IMG/VR virus record: IMGVR_UViG_2534681762_000009
Location: 1-48,656 of that record
Origin: a virus
Taxonomy: Duplodnaviria > Heunggongvirae > Uroviricota > Caudoviricetes
Direction: 5' to 3' (one strand)
Length of the DNA stretch: 48,656 nucleotides
Positions 1,422-48,371 of this stretch are shown here, piece after piece; the stretch's first letter is position 1; every line of letters starts with the position of its first letter. The notes beneath the pieces were generated by a model that worked only from the letters and a program-made list of their open reading frames with translations, had not been told where the DNA came from and searched no databases. Position numbers and translations under genes: made by a program.

Positions 1422-2873
1422 TTAAAAATCAGCCTGATTCGGGATCAGTTTTTGCCAGATAACTGAAACGTATTTTGCCTGGTAACGGGCGTCATCAAGT
1501 GCATTATGGCGCTCACCTTCGAATGGAATAGCCGTTCTGGCATCGAAGTCTATGGCTTTCCCCAGCTCAACGATTGTGCGTACATCGCGATCGTTGTAGT
1601 AACGCCACGGGCAGGGGATCCCCTGCCGTTCGTATGAACGGCGCAAAATCGTGTTGTCGAAGTTGGCTCCATTTCCCCAGACCTGAACAAAAAATTCACC
1701 GGAGTTTTCGTCGATAAATTCCCGCAATTGTAACAGTGCATCATCTAACGGGATTTCATCGGTCATAATGGCAGACTGCGCTTCACGTGATTGCTTCAGC
1801 CACCTTTTAATGACGTCACGATCAATGACTCCGCCAGCAGTTTCCAGATCGATAGTCTTACTAAATTCCGGTCCCATATCTCCGGTTTGCGGATCGAAAA
1901 ATATTGCACCTATTGAGATAATCGGGGCATCAGGATTTTTTCCCATGGTTTCAAGGTCGATCATTAGATGGTCACACGTCCTGCTGGTGGATGTGATAAC
2001 GTGATGACCGTTCATCGTAATTAAGGGATCTGCCGTCTCGCCAGTTTCACTATCGCTGGCGTGATCCTGAGCGCTACCAGCATTCTCCTTGTGTGGATGT
2101 TCAGCGCCTTCCATTTCCTTCGGATCATTTTCCTGAACTTCAACCTGATTCTCTTCATCGAATGTTTCCTGGTATGTTGCGTCACCCATCACCGCGCCAC
2201 AATCAGGGCAGTTGCCGCCACCGCTTTGACCGCAGGCGGTGCAGACTTTTTCCACTTCCTGTTGCGCTACTGGCTCAGGTTGTTTCGTTTCTGGCTCGTT
2301 TTGTTGCGTATTTGGGCTGTTTTGTTCCGCTTTCTGGTCGTTCTGTTCCGATTCTTGCTGGTTCTGGTTTACAGAATCGCGGGTCTCAATCCCCTTTACC
2401 CATTTCGGATCATTCGGGTCGCTAATCCCTTCAACAAATTCTCCGCGAGAGGCAGCAAGCAACTTATCGGCGTCAGGCTGGCTGATATTGGCTGCCTGCA
2501 TAATTTTGTTTACTTCGTCAGCGGTAACTTTTACCGGCTCTGGTTGTGCGGTCGTGTCAGATGCACCAGTATTTTGTTGTGAACCTGAGTACGTGCCGTT
2601 TTTACGTGCGAAGTATTCCTCTTTTGTGATTTCCGTAGCTCCCAAGGCTAGTGCCTTATCCAGACCAGAAAGTTTGTTTGCGCGACCGTATTTTTCGCCA
2701 TCCTTGTCGGTGAAGAGGAAGTAGAACGGCCCCTCACGCTCTACAGATGGTTCGACTTCCACTTTGCATTCGGTTTTTTCGTTGCCCGGAATTGCCGTTT
2801 CCACTGCATCAGTTTCTGGTACTGGCGACGAGAGAGTATCAACAGCGCTCTGATTTGTTCCTTCATTCTTCAA
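1422..2873 (-). CDS. Exonuclease with C-terminal DEDDh (DnaQ-like) 3'-5' exonuclease domain; N-terminal Q/N/E-rich low-complexity region and CxxC…CxxC zinc ribbon
   Basis: C-terminal motifs MIDLETMG … H-x4-D ([11 protein letters not shown]) characteristic of DEDDh exonucleases; [16 protein letters not shown] zinc-ribbon; long uninterrupted ORF in early-left operon. Confidence 0.75.
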
Positions 2874-3894
2874 ACACGCCCTTTGTCGTCAGGTATTCAG
2901 TAATGTATTTGTTCAGTGCTACGGGATCTTTGTGAATGTCGATCGGACGCTCACGGACAAGGCCAAAAATAGTTTGGCGGTCGTAGCGAAGGGCATCAGG
3001 CTGTTTGCGCATTGATGCCGAGATACGCTTCCAGTCTTCGCGGTCGTTGTCGATAACTTCATTTTTTGCCCAGCGATGGATGCTGCCGTCAATGTTTCCG
3101 GCATCCACATCACCAGGCCAGAGAGCGTAGGCCAGTTCGTCATCCAGTGTTTTCCATGTCTGCTTGTATTCGCGATGAATGGCAGCAATGACCGGGCTGA
3201 TTTTTCCTGTTGAATTTTCAGTGTACTGTTGATTGGCTCTGGCGCGGGCGAGATCAACAACAGACGTGTATTTTCCGGTTTCCTTGCGTTCACCTTCGCG
3301 ACGTTTTTTCCAGATGCGCATCTCTGCCTGAATTTCGGGCCATTTAGCACCAGGAATACATTTATGCTTAACCCACCCAATGGCGTGCAACTTAAGCTCC
3401 GGATACATGGCGTTAACTTCTGGCATTTTCATCAACGCTTCAACGATATGTCCGTCGAATGTTGCCATGTCTTCCTGCAACAATTCCTGTGCGCTAATAA
3501 CCATATCAACGGTGATGTTTTCACATGTGTCGAACTTAACCATGACAGCGTTCTGTACTTCAGGGGCCAGCTTGTCAAAAGTGACGTTCATCGGATCGGA
3601 TTCAGTCTCAACCGGGACAAAAGAAGCAGACTCCTCATCCCAGCGGTTTTCCTGCATATATTCAGCATCCCATGAATCGAGGGCAGGGCGGGGTATGCCA
3701 GGTTTATCCTCGCAGACAATAAATTTATAAGCGCAGTCCTGAGCAGCCGGATAATGTTCCAGGAATTGCCAGTGAAATTTTGCTCGAGCACGGCGTTCGT
3801 CGCCAGCTTCAATGGCTGTGGCTACAGCCACAGCGCCTTCTTCCCTTGTTGCCAGTTCGTCAGGAATAGCGGCGCAAATAAAGACTTTACTCAT
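2863..3894 (-). CDS. Conserved prophage protein of unknown function (early-left operon)
   Basis: Long ORF (frame open to 3930); start chosen at Met with GAGG RBS 10 nt upstream (MSKVFICAA…); overlaps downstream exonuclease gene start by 11 nt suggesting translational coupling. Confidence 0.6.
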
Positions 3895-3986
3895 TTGTTT
3901 TAACCTCATGACAGATTTAAGGATGAACAAATCCCTGCCATTGCTGGCATATAAGAATGAAACCGGATATTTATTACGGAACTGTT

Positions 3987-13317: not shown

Positions 13318-13692
13318 ATGCTCATAGATTTGGTTTTACCTTACCCGCCGACGGTGAACACTTACTGGCGACGCCGTGGCAGCACATATTTTATCTCGGA
13401 GGAGGGAAAGCGTTATCGCCGGGCTGTGGCGCTTATTGTTCGCCAGCAGCGGCTGAAATTAAGCCTGTCCGGAAGGCTGGCGATAAAGGTGATTGCAGAG
13501 CCACCGGATAAGCGTCGTCGCGACCTGGACAATATTCTGAAAGCACCACTGGATGCGCTGACGCATGCCGGACTTCTCATAGACGACGAGCAGTTTGATG
13601 AAATCAATATTGTGCGCGGTCAGCGCGTTCCTGGGGGGCGGCTGGGCGTGAAGATTTACCCCATAATGCTTGAAGGGCAGGTCAAAAAATGA
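13318..13692 (+). CDS. rusA: RusA-family Holliday junction resolvase
   Basis: 124-aa ORF MLIDLVLPYPPTVNTYW…RRRDLDNILKAPLDALTHAGLLIDDEQ: canonical RusA motifs (PPSVN-like, D-x-DN catalytic acidic residues); AAGAGG RBS. Confidence 0.8.
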   Translation: MLIDLVLPYPPTVNTYWRRRGSTYFISEEGKRYRRAVALIVRQQRLKLSLSGRLAIKVIAEPPDKRRRDLDNILKAPLDALTHAGLLIDDEQFDEINIVRGQRVPGGRLGVKIYPIMLEGQVKK

Positions 13693-14510
13693 AACTGGAA
13701 GATTTACCGAAATACTACTCCCCAAAATCCCCCGGCCTGACTGATGCATCGGCCTCAACGTCGAAAGATGCGCTGAGTATCACTGATGTGATGGCCGCGC
13801 AGGGCATGACACAGAATCGGGCTGAGATGGGGTTTTCTGCGTTCCTTGGGAAAATGGGCATTAGTATGAATGACAGAGAGCGGGCAACAGAATTGCTGAC
13901 AGAATATGCACTCAGTCGGTGTGATCGCGTGGCGGCGTTAAGAAAACTCCCGGCAGAAATAAAACCGGCAGTGATGCGTATTATGGCTTCGTATGCGTTT
14001 GAAGATTATGCCCGCAGCGCGGCGAGCAAAAAACAGTGCTCCTGCTGTCACGGAAAAAAATTTATTGAAAGCGAGGTTTTTACAAACAAGATCCAGTATC
14101 CGGATGGTAAGCCGCCGGTATGGGCAAAGTGTACGAAAGGTGTGTATCCGTCTTACTGGGAAGAATGGAAAAAAGTCAGGGAGGTGGTAAAAGTTGCCTG
14201 TCCGGAGTGTGGCGGAAAGGGTGAGGTTTCCACCGCCTGTAAGGATTGCCGTGGGCGTGGTGTCGCCATTCATCGTGAAGAGTCGGTAAAACGTGGTATG
14301 CCTGTTATCAGAGACTGCCAGCGTTGTGGTGGTCGTGGCTGTGAAAGACTACCATCAACGGAGGCATTTAATGCCATATGCAAAGTGACGAGTGCTATCA
14401 CGCTTGATACGTGGAAAAAATCAGTGAAACGCTTTTACGATACGTTGGTGGTTCGGTTTGACATTGAAGAGGCATGGGCGGAGCGGCAGTTAAAGAGGGT
14501 AACGCGATAG
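13689..14510 (+). CDS. Late-gene antiterminator Q-like protein with CxxC-x-G-x-G zinc-finger repeats
   Basis: 273-aa ORF in the Q position (after rusA, before a short terminated transcript and the lysis/structural genes); repeated CxxCxGxG motifs (CPECGGKGE…CKDCRGRGV…CQRCGGRGC). Confidence 0.55.
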   Translation: MKLEDLPKYYSPKSPGLTDASASTSKDALSITDVMAAQGMTQNRAEMGFSAFLGKMGISMNDRERATELLTEYALSRCDRVAALRKLPAEIKPAVMRIMASYAFEDYARSAASKKQCSCCHGKKFIESEVFTNKIQYPDGKPPVWAKCTKGVYPSYWEEWKKVREVVKVACPECGGKGEVSTACKDCRGRGVAIHREESVKRGMPVIRDCQRCGGRGCERLPSTEAFNAICKVTSAITLDTWKKSVKRFYDTLVVRFDIEEAWAERQLKRVTR

Positions 14511-15084: not shown

Positions 15085-16134
15085 ATGCTTAATACTGTAA
15101 AAATATCCAGTTGTGAGTTAATCAACGCCGACTGCCTGGAATTTATCCGGTCGTTACCCGAAAATTCTGTTGACCTGATAGTCACGGACCCGCCGTACTT
15201 TAAAGTGAAGCCTGAGGGCTGGGATAACCAGTGGAAGGGCGACGATGATTACCTGAAGTGGCTGGACCAGTGTCTGGCGCAGTTCTGGCGGGTGCTGAAA
15301 CCTGCCGGAAGTCTTTACCTGTTCTGTGGTCATCGCCTGGCATCTGATATCGAAATCATGATGCGTGAACGCTTCAGTGTGCTGAACCATATTATCTGGG
15401 CGAAGCCGTCCGGACGCTGGAACGGATGCAACAAGGAAAGCCTGCGGGCGTATTTCCCCGCCACAGAGCGCATTCTGTTCGCGGAACATTATCAGGGGCC
15501 GTATCGTCCGAAAGATGCCGGGTATGCGGCGAAGGGCAGTGCACTGAAACAGCATGTGATGGCCCCGCTGATTTCTTACTTTCGTGATGCGCGCGCGGCC
15601 CTGGGGATAACGGCAAAACAGATTGCAGATGCCACAGGAAAGAAAAACATGGTGTCGCACTGGTTCAGTGCCAGTCAGTGGCAGCTACCGAACGAAAGCG
15701 ATTATCTGAAATTACAGTCGCTGTTTGCCCGGGTGGCAGAAGAGAAACATCAGCGCGGTGAACTGGAAAAGCCCCACCACCAGCTGGTGGATACGTATAC
15801 GTCACTGAACCGGCAGTATGTGGAGCTGCAGAGTGAATATAAGCATCTGCGGCGGTATTTTGGTGTGACGGCGCAGGTGCCGTACACGGATGTGTGGACA
15901 CATAAACCGGTGCAGTTCTATCCCGGGAAACATCCGTGCGAAAAACCGGCAGAAATGCTGCAGCAGATAATCAGCGCAAGCAGTCGTCCGGGTGACCTGG
16001 TTGCAGATTTTTTTATGGGCTCAGGTTCAACGGTAAAAGCGGCACTGGCGCTCGGGCGTCGTGCGATTGGCGTTGAGCTGGAGACCGGACGTTTTGAGCA
16101 GACAGTCAGGGAAGTTCAGGATTTAATCGTTTGA
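15085..16134 (+). CDS. Orphan DNA methyltransferase (N6-adenine/N4-cytosine class, DPPY motif)
   Basis: 349-aa ORF with catalytic DPPY (VTDPPYF) and C-terminal SAM-binding (FFMGSGST) motifs; no adjacent restriction endonuclease gene. Confidence 0.8.
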   Translation: MLNTVKISSCELINADCLEFIRSLPENSVDLIVTDPPYFKVKPEGWDNQWKGDDDYLKWLDQCLAQFWRVLKPAGSLYLFCGHRLASDIEIMMRERFSVLNHIIWAKPSGRWNGCNKESLRAYFPATERILFAEHYQGPYRPKDAGYAAKGSALKQHVMAPLISYFRDARAALGITAKQIADATGKKNMVSHWFSASQWQLPNESDYLKLQSLFARVAEEKHQRGELEKPHHQLVDTYTSLNRQYVELQSEYKHLRRYFGVTAQVPYTDVWTHKPVQFYPGKHPCEKPAEMLQQIISASSRPGDLVADFFMGSGSTVKAALALGRRAIGVELETGRFEQTVREVQDLIV

Positions 16135-16183: not shown

Positions 16184-16259
16184 GGCCCTTTAGCTCAGTG
16201 GTGAGAGCGAGCGACTCATAATCGCCAGGTCGCTGGTTCAAATCCAGCAAGGGCCACCA
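16184..16259 (+). tRNA. tRNA with CAU anticodon (Ile2/lysidine-type, ileZ-like; could also be read as Met)
   Basis: Folded by hand: acceptor GGCCCTT/AAGGGCC, D-arm GCTC…GAGC, anticodon loop CTCATAA, T-arm GGTCGCTGGTTCAAATCCAGC, 3' ACCA; close to E. coli ileX-type sequence. Confidence 0.8.
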
Positions 16260-16268
16260 TATCACATA

Positions 16269-16345
16269 CCACCATTAGCTCATCGGGATAGAGCGCCAGC
16301 CTTCGAAGCTGGTTGCGCGGGGTTCGAGTTCTCGATGGCGGTCCA
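16269..16345 (+). tRNA. tRNA-Arg (anticodon UCG)
   Basis: Folded by hand: acceptor CCACCAT/ATGGCGG (one A-C mismatch), D-arm GCTC…GAGC, anticodon stem CCAGC/GCTGG with loop CTTCGAA, T-loop TTCGAGT, 3' TCCA. Confidence 0.7.
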
Positions 16346-21423: not shown

Positions 21424-22044
21424 ATGAAAGATCAAGATGTTAGGTTCGCGGTGCATCATAAGCTTTTGAAAGAATCGCATTTAGATCCAGACTGCCTTGT
21501 GGTCGATGAATTTTCCATATCCCTTGGCGCCAGTAGAGCAGACATTGCTGTAATAAATGGTGTTATACACGGGTACGAGCTCAAAAGTGAATATGACTCT
21601 TTGGAGCGTTTGCCTCTTCAAATCAAGCATTATTCTTCTGTAATGGACAAGGTTACTCTTGTCGTAGCTGAGAAACACCTTGAGGGAGCATTAAAGTTAA
21701 TCCCAGGTTGGTGGGGCGTTAAAACGGTTTCTGTTGGGCCAAAAGGCGCCATTCTTATAAAGCACATGCGTGGAGAAAAGCTTAATCGAAACCATGACAC
21801 ATTGATGCTCGCTCAATTGCTTTGGAAAGATGAATGTATCGACGTACTTGAACGATGGGGCTATTCCAAAGGAATCAAAAGCAAGCCCCGATTTGAGTTA
21901 TGGAATATTATTGCGGAAAATATTCCAATAGCGAATCTCAGGCCTGAAGTCAGAACAGCCTTAAAGAAACGCGTAGGCTGGAAAGTTAAGGCTTGGCAGG
22001 CTGAGTCTGCGCCAACCAATAAAGCTGTCTCACGACTAACGTAA
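21424..22044 (+). CDS. Hypothetical protein with PD-(D/E)xK nuclease-like motif (AT-rich accessory gene)
   Basis: 206-aa ORF; very strong RBS (GGAGGGAGTAAGGAGAAGTC-ATG) and consensus TATAAT 28 nt upstream; motif RADIAVINGVIHGYELKS (D … E-x-K after a β-strand-like segment); AT-rich vs flanks. Confidence 0.6.
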   Translation: MKDQDVRFAVHHKLLKESHLDPDCLVVDEFSISLGASRADIAVINGVIHGYELKSEYDSLERLPLQIKHYSSVMDKVTLVVAEKHLEGALKLIPGWWGVKTVSVGPKGAILIKHMRGEKLNRNHDTLMLAQLLWKDECIDVLERWGYSKGIKSKPRFELWNIIAENIPIANLRPEVRTALKKRVGWKVKAWQAESAPTNKAVSRLT

Positions 22045-23053
22045 TATGGTGCGTATGTGCAACTTTACGCCATTCTTTAGAGCCGCCAGATTTGTTAGCG
22101 CCTAATGATCTTTGGTAAATGTAATCATCCCCCCAACTAAATTTGGAGCCAAAGACTTGATACTCTGGCGAACTAACAAGGGTAGTACATAAGTTTTTAG
22201 TTTGGCCCCATCCATTTCCTTTAACTGCGGTACCTTTTACAAAGATCCATGAGGTATCGTTCGAATATCTCACTGAGACATACTGAGACATGAAGCGTGG
22301 GTCTACGCTCGTAATGGTAGAGCTAGCGGTGGGATAATCACTAAAACTTGGCGTTCTTCCATTGCTAAAATTCTGTACTACGTACATCCAAAGATCGTAT
22401 TCATGGCGCGGAATATGATGAACTTGATGTTGCGGTATCCCTGCCTGTGATGCCGGGTATGCGGTTGAAGATAAAATCAAGTTTCTCCACGGAGCTTGGC
22501 CTGATAATGTGTTGACCATGCTTAATGCTTGTTGTTTTAAACTATCAGTTGCGTTTTGAATATCTCCAAAATCAATGATTACATCAATTAAACTAGGATG
22601 AATATTTAAGTGGTTAACCAGACTTGTGAATTGGTGCCATGTCTGGGGGGTGATAGACATAGCGAGCCCATTGATTAAGTTGCGTTGAACAGCATGTATA
22701 TAGTTTGTTGAATATGCGGGAGAAACAACAGGGATAATTTCCTTACCATTTACTCTAGCATCTTGGATACACATATCTAGAGGATGATGGCGGCTCGAAC
22801 CATGTTTATCTAAATATTTAACATCCAGCAAAACAGGACGATTGGCTTTCCAGGATGCCGCAAGGTTAATACCGAAGTCAGATAAGTAAGAACTCAAACT
22901 CTTCTTGTAGCATTCGTTTTCATAATCCCAGTCTATGTCTGGAATGGTAATGATCGGAGTAAAACCAGAGAGCGTAGTTTGATCTAAAAGCATCAGAGAT
23001 TCATATTCAGCAGGCTTCCATTTCAGCTGTGGATAATATTGATGTTGACTCAT
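21986..23053 (-). CDS. Hypothetical protein (355 aa), convergent partner of the nuclease-like gene
   Basis: AAGGAG RBS 5 nt upstream of ATG; 3' end overlaps the plus-strand partner by 59 nt; AT-rich; no family assignable from sequence alone. Confidence 0.6.
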   Translation of the reverse strand: MSQHQYYPQLKWKPAEYESLMLLDQTTLSGFTPIITIPDIDWDYENECYKKSLSSYLSDFGINLAASWKANRPVLLDVKYLDKHGSSRHHPLDMCIQDARVNGKEIIPVVSPAYSTNYIHAVQRNLINGLAMSITPQTWHQFTSLVNHLNIHPSLIDVIIDFGDIQNATDSLKQQALSMVNTLSGQAPWRNLILSSTAYPASQAGIPQHQVHHIPRHEYDLWMYVVQNFSNGRTPSFSDYPTASSTITSVDPRFMSQYVSVRYSNDTSWIFVKGTAVKGNGWGQTKNLCTTLVSSPEYQVFGSKFSWGDDYIYQRSLGANKSGGSKEWRKVAHTHHITLVVRQLYWLAQTQPAKP

Positions 23054-39275: not shown

Positions 39276-42200
39276 ATGGGAAAAGGTGGCGGTAAGGCAC
39301 ACACGCCTCGTGAGGCGAAGGATAATCTCAAATCCACGCAGATGATGAGTGTGATTGATGCGATTGGTGAGGGACCGATAGAAGGTCCGGTGAAGGGACT
39401 GCAGAGTATTCTGGTGAACAAAACCCCGCTGACGGACACGGACGGTAATCCCGTGATACACGGTGTGACCGCGGTCTGGCGTGCCGGGGAGCAGGAGCAG
39501 ACACCACCGGAAGGCTTTGAGTCCTCCGGAGCTGAAACCGGACTGGGCGTGGAAGTGACGAAGGCAAAACCGGTGACGCGCACCATTACGTCCGCGAACA
39601 TTGACCGCCTGCGGGTTACCTTCGGGGTGCAGTCACTGGTGGAGACCACCTCAAAGGGTGACCGTAACCCGGCAACCGTCCGCCTGCTGATTCAGTTACA
39701 GCGTAACGGTAACTGGGTGACAGAAAAGGACGTCACCATTAACGGCAAGACCACCTCACAGTTCCTGGCCTCGGTGATTCTGGATAATCTGCCTCCCCGG
39801 CCCTTTAACATCCGGATGGTCAGGGAGACGGCGGACAGCACCACGGACCAGCTGCAGAATAAGACGCTGTGGTCGTCATACACCGAAATCATCGATGTGA
39901 AACAGTGCTACCCGAACACGGCCATTGTGGGGCTGCAGGTGGATGCGGAGCAGTTCGGCGGCCAGCAGATGACGGTGAACTACCATATCCGCGGTCGTAT
40001 CATCCAGGTGCCGTCAAACTATGACCCGGAAAAACGCACGTACAGTGGTATCTGGGACGGCAGTCTGAAACCGGCATACAGCAACAACCCGGCCTGGTGC
40101 CTGTGGGACATGCTGACTCACCCGCGCTACGGCATGGGAAAACGTCTGGGGGCGGCGGATGTGGACAAGTGGGCGCTGTATGCCATCGGGCAGTACTGCG
40201 ATCAGACGGTCCCGGATGGTTTCGGGGGGACCGAGCCGCGGATGACCTTTAATGCGTACCTGGCACAACAGCGTAAGGCGTGGGACGTTCTCAGTGATTT
40301 CTGCTCTGCGATGCGCTGTATGCCGGTATGGAACGGTCAGACGCTGACGTTCGTTCAGGACCGCCCGTCGGATGTGGTGTGGCCGTACACCAACAGCGAT
40401 GTGGTGGTGGATGATAACGGCGTGGGATTCCGCTACAGCTTCAGTGCCCTGAAGGACCGGCACACGGCGGTGGAGGTGAATTACACCGACCCGCAGAACG
40501 GCTGGCAGACCTCCACGGAACTGGTGGAAGACCCGGAAGCCATACTGCGCTACGGACGCAACCTGCTGAAGATGGACGCGTTCGGCTGTACCAGCCGCGG
40601 TCAGGCCCACCGTGCCGGACTGTGGGTGATAAAGACCGAACTGCTGGAAACGCAGACGGTGGATTTCACGCTCGGGTCTCAGGGGCTGCGGCACACACCC
40701 GGTGACATCATTGAAATCTGTGATAACGACTATGCCGGGACCCTGACCGGCGGACGTGTCCTGTCCATTGATGCTGCCACCCGCACCCTGACGCTGGACC
40801 GTGAAGTGACACTTCCGGAGACCGGTGCCGCCACGGTGAACCTGATTAACGGCAGCGGTAAGCCAGTGAGTGTGGACATCACCGAACACCCCGCGCCGGA
40901 CCGGATACAGGTCAGTACCCTGCCTGATGGTGTGGAGACATACGGGGTGTGGGGACTCTCCCTGCCGTCACTGCGCCGTCGCCTGTTCCGCTGTGTCTCC
41001 GTCCGGGAAAACACGGACGGCACCTTTGCCATCACGGCGGTGCAGCACGTACCGGAAAAAGAAGCCATCGTGGATAACGGTGCCCGCTTTGAGCCGCAGT
41101 CAGGTTCCCTGAACAGCGTCATCCCACCGGCAGTGCAGCACCTGACGGTGGAGGTGAGCGCAGCTGACGGCCAGTATCTGGCGCAGGCGAAATGGGACAC
41201 GCCGCGGGTGGTGAAGGGTGTGCGCTTCAGTCTGCGCCTGACCAGTGGTAAGGGAACGGATGCCAGACTGGTGACCACCGCCATCACCGCAGACACGGAG
41301 CACCGTTTCAGCGGCCTGCCGCTCGGGGAATACACCCTGACGGTGCGGGGGATAAACAGCTATGGCCAGCAGGGTGAACCTGCCACCACCACCTTCCGGA
41401 TTGCCGCACCGGCAGCACCGTCGCGGATTGAGCTGACGCCGGGCTATTTTCAGATAACCGCCACGCCGCATCTTGCCGTTTATGACCCGACGGTACAGTT
41501 TGAGTTCTGGTTCTCGGAAAAGCGGATTGCGGATATCAGGCAGGTTGAAACCGCAGCCCGCTATCTTGGCTCGGCGCTGTACTGGATAGCTGCCAGTATC
41601 AATATCAAACCGGGCCATGATTATTATTTTTATATCCGCAGTGTGAATACTGTTGGCAAATCGGCATTCGTGGAGGCTGTCGGTCGGGCGAGCGATGATG
41701 CGGAAGGTTACCTGGATTTTTTCAAAGGAGAAATCGGGAAAACACATCTGGCCCAGGAGCTGTGGACGCAGATTGATAACGGTCAGCTTGCGCCGGACCT
41801 GGCTGAAATCAGGACGTCCATTACGAATGTCAGCAATGAAATCACGCAGACCGTCAATAAAAAACTGGAAAATCAGAGTGCGGCAATCCAGCAGATACAG
41901 AAAGTTCAGGTTGATACAAATAATAACCTGAACAGCATGTGGGCCGTGAAACTGCAGCAGATGCAGGACGGACGCCTTTATATTGCGGGTATCGGTGCCG
42001 GTATTGAGAATACGCCAGCAGGAATGCAGAGTCAGGTGCTGCTGGCGGCAGACAGGATTGCGATGATTAATCCTGCGAATGGCAACACAAAGCCGATGTT
42101 TGTTGGTCAGGGCGATCAGATATTTATGAATGAAGTGTTCCTGAAATATCTGACGGCTCCCACCATTACCAGCGGCGGTAATCCTCCGGCATTTTCCCTG

Positions 42201-42749
42201 ACACCGGACGGGCGGCTGACGGCGAAAAATGCCGATATCAGCGGTAACGTGAATGCGAACTCCGGGACGCTCAACAACGTCACGATTAACGAGAACTGTC
42301 GGGTTCTGGGAAAATTGTCCGCGAACCAGATTGAAGGCGATCTCGTTAAAACAGTGGGCAAAGCTTTCCCCCGGGACTCCCGTGCACCGGAGCGGTGGCC
42401 ATCAGGAACCATTACCGTCAGGGTTTATGACGATCAGCCGTTTGACCGGCAGATTGTTATTCCGGCGGTGGCATTCAGCGGCGCTAAACATGAGAAAGAG
42501 CATACTGATATTTACTCCTCATGCCGTCTGATAGTGCGGAAAAACGGTGCTGAAATTTATAACCGTACTGCGCTGGATAATACGCTGATTTACAGTGGTG
42601 TTATTGATATGCCTGCCGGTCACGGTCACATGACACTGGAGTTTTCGGTGTCAGCATGGCTGGTAAATAACTGGTATCCCACAGCAAGTATCAGCGATTT
42701 GCTGGTTGTGGTGATGAAGAAAGCCACTGCAGGCATCACGATTAGCTGA
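39276..42749 (+). CDS. J: Central tail fibre/host specificity protein J-like
   Basis: 1157-aa ORF after I; lambda-J-like length and position. Confidence 0.95.
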
Positions 42750-42816: not shown

Positions 42817-43416
42817 ATGCGTAAATTATGTGCTGTTATTTTGTCCGCAGTAGTCTGGCAGGTCGCCGCTGCTACGCCAGCGAGTGCAGCAGAACATCAG
42901 TCCACGCTGAGCGCGGGGTATCTCCATGCCTCGACGAACGTTCCCGGTAGTGATGATCTGAACGGGATTAACGTGAAATACCGTTATGAGTTTACGGACG
43001 CGCTGGGGCTGATTACGTCCTTCAGTTATGCCAATGCTGAGGATGAGCAAAAAACGCGCTACAGCGATACCCGCTGGCATGAAGATTCCGTGCGTAACCG
43101 CTGGTTCAGCGTGATGGCGGGGCCGTCTGTACGCGTGAATGAATGGTTCAGCGCGTATTCGATGGCGGGTGTGGCTTACAGCCGTGTGTCGACTTTCTCC
43201 GGGGATTATCTCCGCGTAACTGACAACAAGGGGAAAACGCACGATGTGCTGACCGGAAGTGATGACGGTCGCCACAGCAACACGTCTCTGGCGTGGGGGG
43301 CTGGCGTGCAGTTTAACCCGACCGAATCCGTGACCATTGACCTTGCTTATGAAGGTTCCGGTAGTGGCGACTGGCGATCGGATGCATTTATTGTTGGTAT
43401 CGGATACCGTTTCTGA
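42817..43416 (+). CDS. lom: Outer membrane β-barrel protein Lom (Ail/Lom family)
   Basis: 199-aa ORF with signal peptide (MRKLCAVILSAVVWQVAAATPASA) and C-terminal aromatic residue (…GIGYRF) typical of OMP barrels; Lom position after J. Confidence 0.9.
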   Translation: MRKLCAVILSAVVWQVAAATPASAAEHQSTLSAGYLHASTNVPGSDDLNGINVKYRYEFTDALGLITSFSYANAEDEQKTRYSDTRWHEDSVRNRWFSVMAGPSVRVNEWFSAYSMAGVAYSRVSTFSGDYLRVTDNKGKTHDVLTGSDDGRHSNTSLAWGAGVQFNPTESVTIDLAYEGSGSGDWRSDAFIVGIGYRF

Positions 43417-43521
43417 CAACAGACGCCGATTTATCTTCTGTAAATATTGTTATGATACGCAGGTTCATCCACCTTATGGGGTGAACTGCGTTTGAGGAAA
43501 CGTAAAGTTACACTGTCCTGA

Positions 43522-43556
43522 AGCCCGTGGCGTCACTGCTGCGGGCTTTTTTTATT
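43522..43556 (+). terminator. Rho-independent terminator after lom
   Basis: AGCCCG-loop-CGGGCT followed by TTTTTTTATT. Confidence 0.55.
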
Positions 43557-43567
43557 GGTGGAAAAGT

Positions 43568-46500
43568 ATGACAGTAAAAATTTCTGGCGTGCTTAAAGAT
43601 GGCACAGGAAAACCAGTACAGAACTGCACCATTGTGCTGAAGGCCAGACGAACCAGCAGCACGGTGGTGGTGAACACGGTGGCCTCTGAAAATCCGGATG
43701 AAGCCGGACGTTACAGCATGGATGTTGAGCATGGTCAGTACAGCGTCACCCTGCTGGTTGAAGGTTTTCCGCCTTCACATGCCGGGACCATTACCGTCTA
43801 TGAAGGTTCCAGACCAGGTACGCTGAATGATTTTCTCGGTGCCATGACGGAGGATGATGTCCGACCGGAGGCACTGCGCCGCTTTGAGCAGATGGTGGAA
43901 GAAGTGTCACGTAACGCCTCCGCGGTTGCACAGAATACGGCAGCCGCGAAAAAATCAGCCAGCGATGCCAGTGCATCAGCCAGCGAGGCGGTAACTCATG
44001 CAACCGATGCTGCAGCCTCAGCACGTGCCGCCAGCACGTCAGCCGGACAGGCCGCGTCGTCGGCTCAGTCAGCGTCTTCCAGCGCAGGAACGGCATCGAC
44101 AAAGGCCCGTGAAGCAGCAAAAAGTGCTGCTGCTGCAGAGTCATCAAAAAGCGCGGCAGCTACCAGCGCCAGTGCCGCGAAAACGTCAGAAACGAATGCC
44201 GCAGCATCACAAAAATCGGCAGCCACTTCTGCATCCACAGCGACCACGAAGGCGTCAGAAGCTGCCACCTCGGCACGGGGTGCGGCGGCCTCAAAAGAGG
44301 CAGCGAAATCTTCAGAAACGAATGCATCATCAAGTGCCAGTAGTGCAGCTTCCTCGGCAACGGCGGCAGGAAATTCCGCGAAGGCGGCAAAGACGTCCGA
44401 GACGAACGCCAGGTCTTCTGAAACGGCAGCGGGACAGAGTGCCTCAGCTGCGGCAGGCTCAAAAACAGCGGCTGCATCATCTGCCAGTGCCGCGTCAACA
44501 AGTGCCGGGCAGGCCTCAGCCAGTGCCACCGCCGCCGGAAAATCGGCAGAAAGCGCCGCATCATCCGCTTCAACAGCCACAACGAAGGCTGGCAAAGCCA
44601 CTGAACAGGCCAGTGCAGCAGCAAGGTCTGCTTCCGCAGCGAAGACATCCGAGACGAACGCGAAAGCGTCGGAAACCAGCGCAGAATCCTCAAAAACGGC
44701 TGCCGCATCGTCCGCCAGTTCGGCGGCGTCATCGGCATCATCGGCGTCAGCTTCAAAAGATGAGGCGACCAGACAGGCGTCAGCAGCGAAGGGCAGCGCC
44801 ACGACAGCATCCACGAAGGCGACAGAGGCAGCTGGCAGTGCGACGGCGGCAGCACAGAGCAAAAGTACGGCGGAATCCGCGGCAACGCGCGCCGAGACAG
44901 CGGCAAAACGGGCAGAGGATATTGCATCCGCCGTGGCGCTTGAGGATGCAAGTACGACGAAAAAGGGGATAGTACAGCTCAGCAGTGCGACCAACAGCAC
45001 ATCTGAAACGCTTGCCGCGACACCGAAGGCAGTTAAAGCAGCGAATGACAATGCGAATGGCAGGGTACCATCTAACCGAAAAGTTAACGGGAAAGCACTG
45101 ACTGCGGATATAACATTAACACCGAAAGATATTGGCACTTTAAATTCAGTAACGATCTCTTTCTCTGGCGGGGCAGGGTGGTTCAAACTGGCAACGGTTA
45201 CCATGCCACAAGCGAGTTCCATCGTTTACATCGCATTGATTGGTGGCGCTGGTTACAACGTCGGCTCCCCACAGCAGGCAGGCATTTCAGAACTGGTTCT
45301 ACGAGCAGGCAATGGAAAGCCCAAAGGGATTACCGGAGCTTTGTGGAAGCGTACAGCCGTCGGATTAACGAATTTCGCCTGGATCAACACATCCGGCGAT
45401 ACATATGATATTTACGTTGAGATTGGCAATTATGCGACGAGTGTAAATATCCATTGGGATTGTACTACAAATGCGTCAGTTTCTATTTATACCTCGCCAA
45501 CATATTCAGCGAGTAAGCCTTCCAGCGTTACCGGTGGTGTTGTTTATACGATGTATAGCTCACATCAGAAACCTACACCATCAGATATTGGAGCGCTGCC
45601 AACGACTGGAGGGACTATTTCAGGTCCGTTGTCTGTTACTGATGGGATCACCGGGGCACTGAAGGGGAACGCCGATACCGCGACGAAACTTGCGGCAGCC
45701 CCAAAAATTAACGGTGTTAAGTTTGATGGCTCGGCGGATATTAACCTCACGTCGGAAAATATTGGTGCATTTGCCCGACGTTCGACGGGGGCTTATGCGG
45801 ATTCGGATGGAGCCGTTCCCTGGAATGCCGAATCAGGCGCTTACAATGTCACCCGCTCTGGCGACAGCTATATTCTGGTTAACTTCTATACCGGAGTCGG
45901 AAGTTGCCGGACCCTGCAGATGAAGGCGCATTACAGAAATCGTGGTCTGTTCTACCGTTCTTCAAGAGACGGTTATGGTTTTGAGGAAGACTGGGCAGAA
46001 GTTTATACCTCGAAAAATCTTCCACCAGAAAGCTACCCAGTTGGCGCACCAATCCCGTGGCCATCAGATACCGTTCCGTCTGGTTATGCCCTGATGCAGG
46101 GGCAGACTTTTAACAAATCTGCCTAGCCGAAACTTGCAGCCGCTTATCCGTCAGGCGTGATCCCTGATATGCGTGGCTGGACGATTAAGGGCAAACCTGC
46201 CAGTGGTCGGGCCGTATTGTCTCAGGAACAGGACGGCATTAAATCGCATACCCACAGCGCCAGCGCATCCAGTACGGATTTGGGGACGAAAACCACATCG
46301 TCGTTTGATTACGGCACTAAATCCACGAATAACACCGGGGCGCATACGCACAGTCTGAGTGGCTCTACGGGGTCTGCCGGTGTTCATACTCATGGTAATG
46401 GTATTCGTTGGCCAGGAGGCGGCGGTTCTGCGTTAGCATTTTATGATGGCGGTGGGTTCACTTATGTCCAGAATTCACAGTATCAAGTAAGCCCGGGGAC

Positions 46501-46738
46501 TTCTTCCTATAGATCGTATTATCAACGTATTCAGACACAGTCAGCAGGTGCTCATACCCACTCGCTGTCTGGTACTGCAGCAAGTTCTGGCGCACATGCA
46601 CATACTGTAGGTATTGGTGCGCATACGCACTCCGTTGCGATTGGTTCACATGGACACACCATCACCGTTAACGCTGCGGGTAACGCGGAAAACACCGTCA
46701 AAAACATCGCATTTAACTATATTGTGAGGCTTGCATAA
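43568..46738 (+). pseudogene. stf: Side tail fibre (Stf-like) interrupted by in-frame amber codon at 46124-46126
   Basis: 852-aa ORF ends …[12 protein letters not shown]; reading continues in the same frame as [28 protein letters not shown]… through the His-rich C-terminal domain to 46738; the C-terminal domain ORF begins only with a GTG 31 nt after the stop. Confidence 0.7.
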
Positions 46739-47322
46739 TGGCATTCAGAATGAGTGAACAAGCACGGACCATAAAAATTTATAATCTGCTGGCCGGAACT
46801 AATGAATTTATTGGTGAAGGTGACGCATATATTCCGCCTCATACAGGTCTGCCAGCAAACAGTACCGATATTGCACCGCCAGATATTCCGGCTGGCTTTG
46901 TGGCTGTTTTCAACAGTGATGAGGCATCGTGGCATCTCGTTGAAGATCATCGGGGTAAAACGGTTTATGACGTAGCTTCCGGCGACGCGTTATTTATTTC
47001 TGAACTCGGCTTATTACCGGAAAATGTTACCTGGTTATCGCCGGAAGGGGAGTTTCAGAAGTGGAACGGCACAACCTGGGTGAAAGATGCAGAAGCAGAA
47101 AAACTGTTCCGGATCCGGGAGGCGGAAGAAACAAAAAACAACCTGATGCAGGTAGCCAGTGAGCATATTGCGCCGCTTCAGGATGCTGCAGATCTGGAAA
47201 TTGCAACGGAGGAAGAAACCTCATTGCTGGAAGCCTGGAAAAAGTATCGGGTGTTGCTGAACCGTGTTGATACATCAACTGCACCTGATATTGAGTGGCC
47301 TACGAACCCTGTCAGGGAGTAA
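46738..47322 (+). CDS. tfa: Tail fibre assembly protein (Tfa-like)
   Basis: 194-aa ORF ATGA-like coupled to stf end; typical Tfa N-terminus ([17 protein letters not shown]…). Confidence 0.85.
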
Positions 47323-47376: not shown

Positions 47377-48045
47377 CTATTTTTTCCCTGAAGCGGAAAA
47401 CATTACTACAGTACCTTGAACCTTGGTTTTAACATTCTCGAAATGCTCTGAGAGTATATGTGTTAAGCCTTCTTCGGAATCTTTTGTGTTTGAAAAGATG
47501 CCTTTCTGATTGTAAATGCGCATCAGTTTTTGACCGAAGCTATTGTGCACAACTCCATCGCCAAGAATTGTGGCTCCGTATAGAGTTCCATCGTCAGTTA
47601 AGGCCTGCGCCGCATTGCGTATTACACAGCTTTTTGTAGATATATTTCCAGGCAGGCAGTGAAGAAGGTAAAACATGGAAATGGAATCAAATTGACCATG
47701 TAACGCCGCGGGATAAGGTTCAAAAACATCATGGCTAATTTTATGTTTAATTTTTGATTCCCCAGCCCTTGTAGATGCCGCGTTCAGGCTAGCTTCGTTC
47801 AAATCCATTAAAGATATCAGACTACTCTCAGGTACGTGAGTAAGGTAAAACCCAGTTCCAACACCAATATCCAGATGGTTGTTACCTACATGTTCCAGAA
47901 AGTGTGGAAGAAGGTGTTCCTTTGTAGGACATCCCCATGCAAGCCGATTTGATACTCCCAAAACCCACCAGTCATAAAGCTTTAGGGTAAGTGGTGTGTA
48001 AATTTTAGCCCCATCATCTGTGTTTTTTTTCATTGATTTCACCAT
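47377..48045 (-). CDS. Class I SAM-dependent methyltransferase (cargo gene)
   Basis: 222-aa ORF with Rossmann motif I (LDIGVGTGFY) and acidic residue at end of β2 (LMDLNEASL); opposite strand to tail genes; AT-rich; bracketed by duplicated tfa 3' sequences. Confidence 0.75.
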   Translation of the reverse strand: MVKSMKKNTDDGAKIYTPLTLKLYDWWVLGVSNRLAWGCPTKEHLLPHFLEHVGNNHLDIGVGTGFYLTHVPESSLISLMDLNEASLNAASTRAGESKIKHKISHDVFEPYPAALHGQFDSISMFYLLHCLPGNISTKSCVIRNAAQALTDDGTLYGATILGDGVVHNSFGQKLMRIYNQKGIFSNTKDSEEGLTHILSEHFENVKTKVQGTVVMFSASGKK

Positions 48046-48101
48046 GTTATAGTTTTATTTGTGAATTAAATCAATTATGGCGATGAATTACAAGGGGTTA
48101 A

Positions 48102-48371
48102 ATGCTGCCGCAGCATAGCGATATTGAAATAGCCTGGTATGCTTCGATACAGCAGGAGCCGAATGGCTGGAAGACCGTCACCACACAGTTCTACATCCAG
48201 GAATTCAGTGAGTATATTGCGCCACTGCAGGATGCTGTAGATCTGGAAATCGCAACGGAGGAAGAAAGATCGTTGCTGGAGGCATGGAATAAATATCGGG
48301 TATTGTTGAATCGTGTTGATACATCAACTGCACCTGATATTGAGTGGCCTGCAAATCCTGTCAGGGAGTAA
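48102..48371 (+). CDS. Second Tfa-like C-terminal domain protein (possibly truncated paralogue)
   Basis: 89-aa ORF whose C-terminal 60 aa are near-identical to Tfa C-terminus (IAPLQDA(A/V)DLEIATEEE…[15 protein letters not shown](T/A)NPVRE). Confidence 0.55.

What the first reader, a model, noticed from the sequence alone, without database searches (positions are those of the whole stretch)
46100..46160. Side tail fibre gene split by an in-frame amber (TAG) codon
The stf ORF ends …CAGACTTTTAACAAATCTGCC-TAG and the same reading frame continues without interruption as CCGAAACTTGCAGCCGCTTATCCGTCAGGCGTGATCCCTGATATGCGTGGCTGG ([22 protein letters not shown]…) for another 193 codons, including the His-rich C-terminal receptor-binding domain followed by tfa. 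Intact homologues carry a Tyr codon at this position as I recall them, so a single TAT/TAC to TAG change would explain it. Either the prophage makes side-fibre-less particles, or full-length fibre depends on amber suppression or readthrough.
Basis: seen in the sequence. Interest (0 to 1): 0.55.

Follow-up and report, generated by a model that had tools for sequence, protein, structure and literature searches.

The report
Nonsense-mutated prophage side tail fibre gene
A lambda-like prophage of E. coli carries a real single-base change that turns a conserved tyrosine codon of its side tail fibre gene into a stop codon, an ordinary loss-of-function mutation of a dispensable gene, much like the one in laboratory phage lambda.

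Summary
The stf reading frame (ATG 43568) has one in-frame TAG at 46124-46126. It has 852 sense codons before it and 203 after it (not 193), and ends in TAATG overlapping tfa. The closest intact allele, in E. coli 55989 (1056 aa), has TAC (Tyr) there and differs at only 3 of 3174 nt, so the lesion is a single C-to-G change at 46126. Tyr is found in 120/120 close protein clusters, in 130 of the 137 diverse representatives that cover the site, and in T4 gp37. The stop sits inside the Pfam tail-collar domain, so one gene is broken rather than two genes being natural.

No stop allele occurs in 5,426 complete E. coli genomes, the GTDB representative genomes, IMG/VR or the JGI metagenome contigs. 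A second, independently deposited draft assembly does carry the same TAG, with 4 SNPs over 11.2 kb, so this is a real lineage allele and not a sequencing error. The window encodes no amber suppressor tRNA, and no other gene is split by TAG.

The most likely outcome is no functional side fibres, with J-dependent infection unaffected, as in lambda PaPa. Functional readthrough or suppression is unsupported but cannot be excluded without the host genome. The finding is ordinary and of low interest.

The parts
43568..46126 (+). 5' part of stf: 852 sense codons plus the premature TAG. It contains the virion-attachment domain (PF08400, aa 1-134), a long Ala/Ser-rich shaft, a gp37_C-like region and the first ~26 positions of the collar domain.
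   Evidence: ORF list and translation. Pfam PF08400 at 4.3e-70; Collar fragment 21.3 bits, below the 24-bit cut-off. Same ATG as the annotated 55989 CDS.
46124..46126 (+). Amber codon TAG replacing Tyr853 (TAC in intact alleles). The mutated base is G at 46126 (C in homologues), and the +4 base is C.
   Evidence: window TAG, 55989 TAC. (allele counts). (same TAG in GCA_002462765.1).
46043..46186 (+). Phage tail collar domain (PF07484), residues 826-873 of the repaired protein, cut in two by the stop.
   Evidence: Truncated piece: sub-threshold.
46127..46738 (+). 3' part of stf: 203 sense codons plus TAA. It encodes the rest of the collar, the HxH-rich needle and the receptor-binding tip homologous to T4 gp37. 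It is no longer translated from the stf start.
   Evidence: Translation. PDB 2XGF gp37 at E 5.5e-83 over query residues 81-316. PF03335 repeats. Zero nucleotide differences from 55989 downstream of the TAG within stf.
46738..47322 (+). tfa, the tail fibre assembly chaperone (194 aa). It is intact, and its ATG overlaps the stf stop (TAATG).
   Evidence: PF02413 Caudo_TAP at 4.8e-44. Overlap read directly. Annotated as tail fiber assembly protein WP_000885567.1 in 55989.

Best explanation
This is a genuine, recent nonsense mutation (TAC Tyr853 to TAG, C-to-G at 46126) in the side tail fibre gene stf of a lambda-like prophage. The prophage lies at the ompW/yciE locus of an E. coli lineage represented by at least two sequenced isolates. 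Translation from the stf ATG ends inside the collar domain. The 852-aa product keeps the N-terminal tail-attachment domain and the shaft but lacks the C-terminal 203 residues: the rest of the collar, the His-rich needle and the receptor-binding tip. By inference from lambda PaPa, whose C-terminally disrupted Stf is absent from virions, and from the C-terminal, chaperone-assisted trimerisation of gp37-type fibres, no functional side fibres are made. If the prophage can still be induced, its particles would adsorb through J only, more slowly but still infectively. Shown here: the lesion, its singleton or lineage status, Tyr conservation, domain disruption, and the lack of a suppressor tRNA in the window. 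Inferred: the fibre-less phenotype, and neutrality or a mild advantage of the loss.
For: One in-frame TAG, 852 + 203 codons. The 55989 allele is intact with TAC and has only 3 nt differences in 3174 nt; the other two are one synonymous change and one V/A change. The 81-mer with TAG has 0 full-length exact matches in 5,426 complete E. coli genomes, while with TAC 68 records match exactly. The 26-nt context has 0 TAR and 85 TAY matches in IMG/VR. There are 0 in JGI metagenome contigs and 0 in the GTDB representatives. Tyr is present in 120/120 close cluster representatives. Among the representatives clustered at 50% identity, 130 have Tyr, 5 credibly aligned ones have N, C or T, 2 non-Tyr calls are spurious local alignments, and 13 do not cover the site. 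T4 gp37 2XGF also has Tyr. The collar domain spans the stop. The same TAG occurs in a second assembly, NKEQ01000039.1, which differs from the window at 4 of 11,205 nt. The window is identical to AQEJ01000008.1. The only tRNAs in the window are Met(cat) and Arg(tcg). No other gene is split by an in-frame stop. Literature: the lambda PaPa stf frameshift prevents side-fibre synthesis; the fibres speed adsorption 10-30x but do not change plaque counts (PMC12617516). Stf and Tfa are not detected in lambda PaPa virions by mass spectrometry (PMC10721106). Loss-of-function stf mutants are readily selected in structured environments, in 19 of 21 isolates (PMC2762979).
Against: No expression or particle data exist, so the fibre-less phenotype rests on analogy. 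The +4 base is C, not the read-through-reducing U (PMC5289835), so some leaky full-length product is possible. The host genome outside the window could not be scanned for an amber suppressor. The two assemblies could be the same strain sequenced twice; that would still verify the base but would not show spread through a lineage.
Confidence: 0.86

Rival explanations
1. The TAG is a sequencing or assembly error in a draft genome, and the real base at 46126 is C, so stf is intact.
For: The window comes from a draft WGS assembly, GCA_000355115.2. The allele is absent from all complete genomes and from the other collections searched. A second apparent lesion in the same assembly, a +1 A insertion in the exonuclease gene, was found only in this assembly.
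Against: A separately deposited assembly, GCA_002462765.1, has the same TAG. Its contig has a different length (33 kb against 733 kb) and it shows 4 SNPs against the window over 11.2 kb. The same sequence context is read as TAC in 68 complete-genome records, so this is not a systematic context error. Substitution errors are rare in consensus assemblies (general knowledge).
Confidence: 0.03
2. Full-length Stf is still made at a useful level. This could happen through an amber suppressor tRNA elsewhere in the host, or through near-cognate readthrough of UAG-C. The allele would then be a leaky or conditional one that tunes fibre number, rather than a null. A supF-type tRNA-Tyr would restore the exact wild-type protein.
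For: The downstream 203 codons are completely undegraded, with 0 differences from 55989. The +4 base is C rather than the read-through-reducing U. tfa is intact. The allele has persisted long enough to be seen in two assemblies.
Against: The stop is not conserved in any other homologue. The window has no tRNA with a CUA anticodon. No other gene in the window carries an internal TAG. The lack of downstream decay is fully explained by the mutation being recent: only 4 differences from 55989 across 43.5-48.7 kb. Read-through at UAG is reported as less frequent than at UGA (PMC5289835), and basal UAG readthrough in wild-type E. coli is low (my recollection, not quantified here). Each virion needs 12 full-length chains for four trimeric fibres (PMC12617516).
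Confidence: 0.07
3. Two genes are the natural state: a shaft protein ending at ...NKSA and a separate tip protein that starts downstream (GTG 46157 or ATG 46169) and joins it non-covalently.
For: Gene callers in both draft assemblies called a 189-aa downstream product from ATG 46169. One database protein, P0180, ends exactly at ...DKSA.
Against: P0180 is an artefact of a 419-nt contig end, not a stop. Every homologue that covers the site reads through it with a sense codon. The break lies inside a single Pfam domain and inside the contiguous gp37 crystal-structure chain. The nearest allele differs by one base and is a single 1056-aa CDS.
Confidence: 0.01

Closest known systems
Phage lambda PaPa stf frameshift (orf-401 / orf-314) versus Ur-lambda stf (Hendrix and Duda 1992; cited through PMC12617516, PMC10721106 and PMC2762979)
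   Same: In both, a lambda-type stf gene is interrupted upstream of the gp37-like C-terminal receptor-binding region while tfa stays intact downstream. The expected result is particles without side fibres that still infect through J. The window's stf 3' region matches lambda orf-314/orf-194 at 89.7% nucleotide identity.
   Different: The lesion here is a base substitution giving an amber codon, not a 1-nt deletion frameshift. It lies later in the gene (codon 853 of 1056, inside the collar domain). The gene is longer (1056 aa against 774 aa in Ur-lambda, the latter from my recollection). It occurs in prophages of sequenced E. coli isolates rather than in a laboratory phage stock.
Intact allele: E. 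coli 55989 prophage tail fibre WP_000216491.1 (NC_011748.1 1452905-1456075)
   Same: Same gene at the same chromosomal locus (prophage next to yciE/yciF and an ompW remnant), with the same start and stop. 3171 of 3174 nt are identical.
   Different: It has TAC (Tyr) at codon 853, so the CDS is uninterrupted. There is one synonymous difference (E112) and one missense difference (A142 in 55989, V142 here).
T4 long tail fibre tip gp37, C-terminal fragment (PDB 2XGF)
   Same: The region from 32 residues before the stop to the C-terminus aligns to the solved gp37 chain with E 5.5e-83. The alignment includes the motif GQTF(D/N)KSAYPKLA with the same Tyr, the HxH repeats and the ...[11 protein letters not shown] end.
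   Different: gp37 belongs to a myovirus long tail fibre and is attached through gp36. Here the domain is the tip of a siphovirus side fibre with a PF08400 N-terminal anchor. The central tip segment (query residues about 207-255) is divergent.
Classical conditional amber mutants of phages (for example lambda Sam7, T4 amber mutants), from general knowledge
   Same: A TAG nonsense codon in a phage gene, whose function would return in supE/supF-type hosts. A Tyr-inserting suppressor would regenerate the wild-type protein.
   Different: This one was not selected in the laboratory, it lies in a non-essential gene, and there is no evidence that the host carries a suppressor.

Membership tests
Lambda-type side tail fibre Stf | N-terminal 'prophage tail fibre N-terminal' domain (PF08400) that anchors the fibre on the tail | tested here: met
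   PF08400 at 4.3e-70, residues 1-134, full profile length.
Lambda-type side tail fibre Stf | C-terminal collar plus a gp37-like HxH needle and tip | tested here: met
   It is present but split by the stop. Collar scores 47.7 bits when repaired. 2XGF gp37 matches at E 5.5e-83.
Lambda-type side tail fibre Stf | Position downstream of J and lom, followed by the chaperone gene tfa | tested here: met
   J at 39276-42749, Ail/Lom at 42817-43416, stf from 43568, tfa at 46738-47322.
Lambda-type side tail fibre Stf | A single uninterrupted reading frame giving a full-length fibre protein | tested here: not met
   TAG at codon 853. So this is a disrupted allele (pseudogene) of the family, not a functional member.
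Pseudogene by recent nonsense mutation | One-base difference from an intact orthologue at a conserved sense codon | tested here: met
   TAC in 55989, TAG here. Tyr in 120/120 close representatives and in 130 of the 137 diverse representatives that cover the site.
Pseudogene by recent nonsense mutation | The allele is rare and confined to one lineage | tested here: met
   0 in 5,426 complete genomes, GTDB representatives, IMG/VR and JGI metagenome contigs. Present in only 2 draft assemblies.
Pseudogene by recent nonsense mutation | The base call is real, not an error | tested here: met
   The same TAG appears in the independently deposited assembly GCA_002462765.1. Raw reads themselves could not be inspected.
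Programmed stop-codon readthrough or recoding | The stop codon is conserved among homologues | tested here: not met
   No other homologue has a stop at this codon.
Programmed stop-codon readthrough or recoding | A dedicated suppressor tRNA or a stimulatory signal carried by the element | tested here: not met
   The window has only tRNA-Met(cat) and tRNA-Arg(tcg). The flanking sequence is identical to ordinary TAC alleles, so no signal has evolved specifically here.
Programmed stop-codon readthrough or recoding | Readthrough product detected | not testable with these tools
   This needs mass spectrometry or a western blot of induced lysates.
Lambda PaPa-like fibre-less phage | Virions lack side fibres but remain infectious through J | not testable with these tools
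   Inferred only. The late genes from Nu1 to J have normal lengths and domains. Inducibility is unknown.

The most novel reading that the evidence does not exclude
The amber allele is not a null but a maintained leaky allele. Low-level UAG-C readthrough, or a host amber suppressor, would yield a minority of full-length Stf. Induced particles would then be a mixture of fibre-less and few-fibred virions, a bet-hedging of adsorption rate between structured and well-mixed environments.
Probability: 0.03. Interest if true: 0.5.

Novelty: new member of a known kind. Interest (0 to 1): 0.12.

Why it matters
It matters little beyond annotation. The two pieces should be annotated as one stf pseudogene (internal stop). 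They should not be called as two genes, nor, as in the existing gene calls, as an antisense ORF plus fragments. The case is a natural counterpart of the lambda PaPa lesion. It fits experimental evidence that loss of side fibres is easily selected and harmless to infectivity. For anyone using this prophage's Stf tip for host-range engineering, the coding information is intact and one base (G46126C) restores it.

Tried and rejected
1. Exact look-up of the full 852-aa truncated product and of the 193-aa GTG ORF found nothing. The stf 5' part was not called as a gene in the source assembly, and the tip fragment was called from ATG 46169 rather than GTG 46157. Look-ups with the products as actually called (397, 191 and 189 aa) succeeded.

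2. P0180, a 140-aa protein ending exactly at ...DKSA, looked like an independent stop at the same codon. It is the end of a 419-nt contig, so it was rejected.

3. The one record at 99% identity or more in the TAG 81-mer search is not among the full-length hits, whose best identity is 98.8%. I took it to be a partial match and did not inspect it.

4. A literature search for the assembly and WGS accessions found no paper, so the strain identities remain unknown.

5. A search for a quantitative UAG-C readthrough figure in E. coli yielded only qualitative statements.

6. I tested whether the amber codon was part of a wider pattern, such as several amber-split genes or a phage-borne suppressor. No such pattern exists.

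7. I considered structure prediction and RNA-structure analysis of the stop context. I did not run them, because the flanking sequence is identical to ordinary sense alleles.

Full report
**1. Observation**

The quoted sequence is present as described. The window reads ...CAG ACT TTT AAC AAA TCT GCC TAG CCG AAA CTT GCA GCC..., with TAG at 46124-46126.

- Translating 43568-46741 in one frame gives 852 sense codons, a single stop, and then 203 further sense codons: [22 protein letters not shown] ... [11 protein letters not shown], ending in TAA.
The uninterrupted frame after the stop is 203 codons.
- The final TAA (46736-46738) overlaps the ATG of the next gene as TAATG.
- A six-frame scan for stops flanked by at least 90 open codons on each side shows 876 and 203 open codons around this TAG. 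It is the only such split on the + strand that lies within a gene; the other two + strand cases (30653, 31434) are stops at or beside the boundary of adjacent late genes.

**2. What the gene is**

- The 5' piece carries the prophage tail-fibre N-terminal domain PF08400 (4.3e-70, residues 1-134). It ends in a sub-threshold fragment of the tail collar domain PF07484 (21.3 bits against a 24-bit cut-off, profile positions 1-26 of 57).
- The 3' piece carries PF03335 fibre repeats. It is followed by an intact tail fibre assembly gene (PF02413, 4.8e-44).
- With the stop replaced by Tyr, the collar domain is recovered whole: 47.7 bits over residues 826-873, with the stop at 853.
- The stretch from 32 residues before the stop to the C-terminus aligns to the crystallised tip of T4 gp37 (PDB 2XGF) with E 5.5e-83. 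That alignment includes the motif GQTF(D/N)KSAYPKLA.
- Upstream lie J (1157 aa) and an Ail/Lom protein. Further upstream the lambda-type late genes from Nu1 to I have normal sizes and domains.
- The window starts at a lambda-type integrase.
- The early region has a transcriptional regulator (not shown to be the repressor), a CII-like activator, a replication initiator and a Q-like antiterminator.

This is therefore the stf-tfa module of a lambda-like prophage.

**3. What homologues carry at this codon**

- The best full-length match, E. coli 55989, annotates one intact 3171-nt CDS (WP_000216491.1, 1056 aa) with the same start.
- Across the 3174 nt of stf it differs from the window at three positions: 43903 (synonymous, E112), 43992 (V142 here, A142 in 55989) and 46126. 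At 46126 the window has G and 55989 has C, so TAG here corresponds to TAC, Tyr853.
- From 43.5 kb to the window end, only four differences separate the two sequences. None lies downstream of the TAG within stf.
- An 81-nt query centred on the codon finds no full-length exact match in 5,426 complete E. coli genomes when it carries TAG; the best hits are 98.8%, one mismatch. When it carries TAC, 68 records match exactly.
- A degenerate 26-nt context with TAR has 0 matches in IMG/VR and 0 in the JGI metagenome contigs. The TAY control has 85 matches in IMG/VR.
- The 41-mer with TAG has 0 matches in the GTDB species representatives.
- At the protein level, all 120 of the best 90%-identity cluster representatives have Tyr.
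- Among the 150 best 50%-identity representatives, 130 have Tyr. Five credibly aligned ones have N, C or T. Two further non-Tyr calls come from spurious local alignments. Thirteen do not cover the site, and none has a stop.
- One protein, P0180, ends exactly at ...DKSA, but it is the end of a 419-nt contig.

Homologues therefore do not support two natural genes.

**4. Is the base real?**

- The window is identical to AQEJ01000008.1 of the draft assembly GCA_000355115.2, with 0 differences over 15,381 nt.
- Look-ups with the products as called in that assembly also found a second assembly, GCA_002462765.1. Its contig NKEQ01000039.1 is 33 kb, against 733 kb for the first.
- That contig carries the same TAG. 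It differs from the window at 4 of 11,205 nt: 37823, 41350 (G692A in J), 41786 and 44728.
- The same substitution in two separately deposited assemblies makes an error very unlikely, especially as the same context is read as TAC in 68 complete-genome records.
- I could not inspect raw reads. I also could not establish whether the two assemblies are different isolates or one strain sequenced twice.

**5. Mechanism**

*Shown.* Translation from the stf start ends inside the collar domain. The product keeps the attachment domain and shaft but lacks the rest of the collar, the His-rich needle and the receptor-binding tip.

*Inferred.* No functional side fibres are made. The inference rests on three published results.
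[quoted passage not shown] The fibres speed adsorption 10-30 fold but do not change plaque numbers (PMC12617516).
- Neither Stf nor Tfa is detected by mass spectrometry in lambda PaPa virions, although its N-terminal fragment is encoded (PMC10721106).
- Loss-of-function stf mutations arose in 19 of 21 phage isolates selected in a biofilm-like environment. [quoted passage not shown]

Loss of Stf is thus tolerated and sometimes favoured. The complete lack of decay downstream of the TAG is explained by how recent the mutation is.

**6. Suppression or readthrough**

- The window encodes only tRNA-Met(cat) and tRNA-Arg(tcg). No other gene has an internal TAG.
- The flanks are identical to ordinary sense alleles, so nothing suggests an evolved recoding signal.
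- The +4 base is C rather than the read-through-reducing U, and UAG is intermediate in leakiness (PMC5289835). A trace of full-length protein cannot be excluded.
- Each virion needs 12 full-length chains for four trimers.
- The host genome outside the window could not be scanned for suppressors.

I put functional suppression or readthrough at about 7%, sequencing error at about 3%, and two natural genes at about 1%.

**7. Comparison with what is known, and novelty**

- The closest precedent is lambda PaPa against Ur-lambda. The consequence is the same. The lesion type differs (nonsense, not frameshift), as do its position and setting.
- The intact counterpart is the 55989 allele.
- The gene meets every defining feature of the Stf family except an uninterrupted frame. 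It is best filed as an stf pseudogene with an internal stop.
- It fails the tests for programmed readthrough, since the stop is not conserved and no suppressor is carried.
- This is a new instance of a known kind of event, and interest is low (0.12).

**8. Side observations**

- The prophage's RecE-like exonuclease is also broken. A one-base insertion near 2867 separates it into two ORFs, where strain 300709 has an intact 823-aa gene. This hints at general decay. I found the exact fragment only in the AQEJ assembly, so an error there is not excluded.
- Gene calls in both draft assemblies include a 385-aa antisense ORF inside the Ala/Ser-rich stf shaft and miss the true 5' part of stf.

Noticed in passing
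window 1422-3930 (- strand), junction near 2867: The RecE-like exonuclease is split into two overlapping ORFs: 3930..2863 matches phrog_2082 positions 1-343, and 2873..1422 matches positions 342-823. The cause is a one-base A insertion (GAAGAATGA here, GAAG-ATGA in the comparison) relative to the intact 823-aa CDS of E. coli 300709. This may be a second inactivating lesion in the prophage, or an assembly error. The exact 343-aa fragment was found only on the AQEJ contig.
   Followed up: partly
window 44065-45222 (- strand): A 385-aa antisense ORF lies inside the Ala/Ser-rich repetitive shaft region of stf. It was called as a gene in both draft assemblies, while the true 5' part of stf was not called. 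It is a likely spurious gene call caused by low-complexity sequence together with the premature stop.
   Followed up: partly
window 21986-23053 (- strand): A 355-aa protein matches the full length of Pfam PF14350 'Beta_protein' (8.3e-56). It is encoded opposite to the late operon, between the region upstream of the terminase genes and Nu1, so it looks like an inserted accessory gene of unknown role.
   Followed up: no
window 16184-16345 (+ strand): Two tRNA genes, tRNA-Met(cat) and tRNA-Arg(tcg), lie downstream of the Q-like antiterminator (13689-14510) and a DNA methyltransferase (15085-16134). Neither is an amber suppressor.
   Followed up: yes
window 47377-48371: Downstream of tfa lie a class I SAM-dependent methyltransferase on the - strand (47377-48045) and an 89-aa C-terminal Tfa remnant (48102-48371). 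The same arrangement is annotated in E. coli 55989 next to an ompW remnant and yciE/yciF, which marks the prophage's right end.
   Followed up: partly
L002 (NZ_CP025903.1 1548418-1552641): In E. coli 300709 a 4224-nt CDS annotated as 'terminase gpA endonuclease subunit' runs into the 3' part of stf. This looks like a large deletion that fused gpA to stf in frame, leaving a prophage remnant that keeps the intact TAC allele of the fibre tip.
   Followed up: no
window 43520-43549 (+ strand): A strong terminator-like hairpin (13-pair stem followed by a T run) lies between lom and the stf start. This suggests that stf-tfa expression depends on Q-antiterminated late transcription.
   Followed up: no
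L009 (JBTITZ010000229.1, 419 nt): A draft-assembly contig ends exactly at the codon before the conserved Tyr, which mimics a truncated protein ending ...DKSA. In the representative search, many proteins' best-matching stretch begins at P0001 residues about 107, 134 or 175-181, near the collar region. This suggests the region is a recurrent mosaic or recombination junction.
   Followed up: partly
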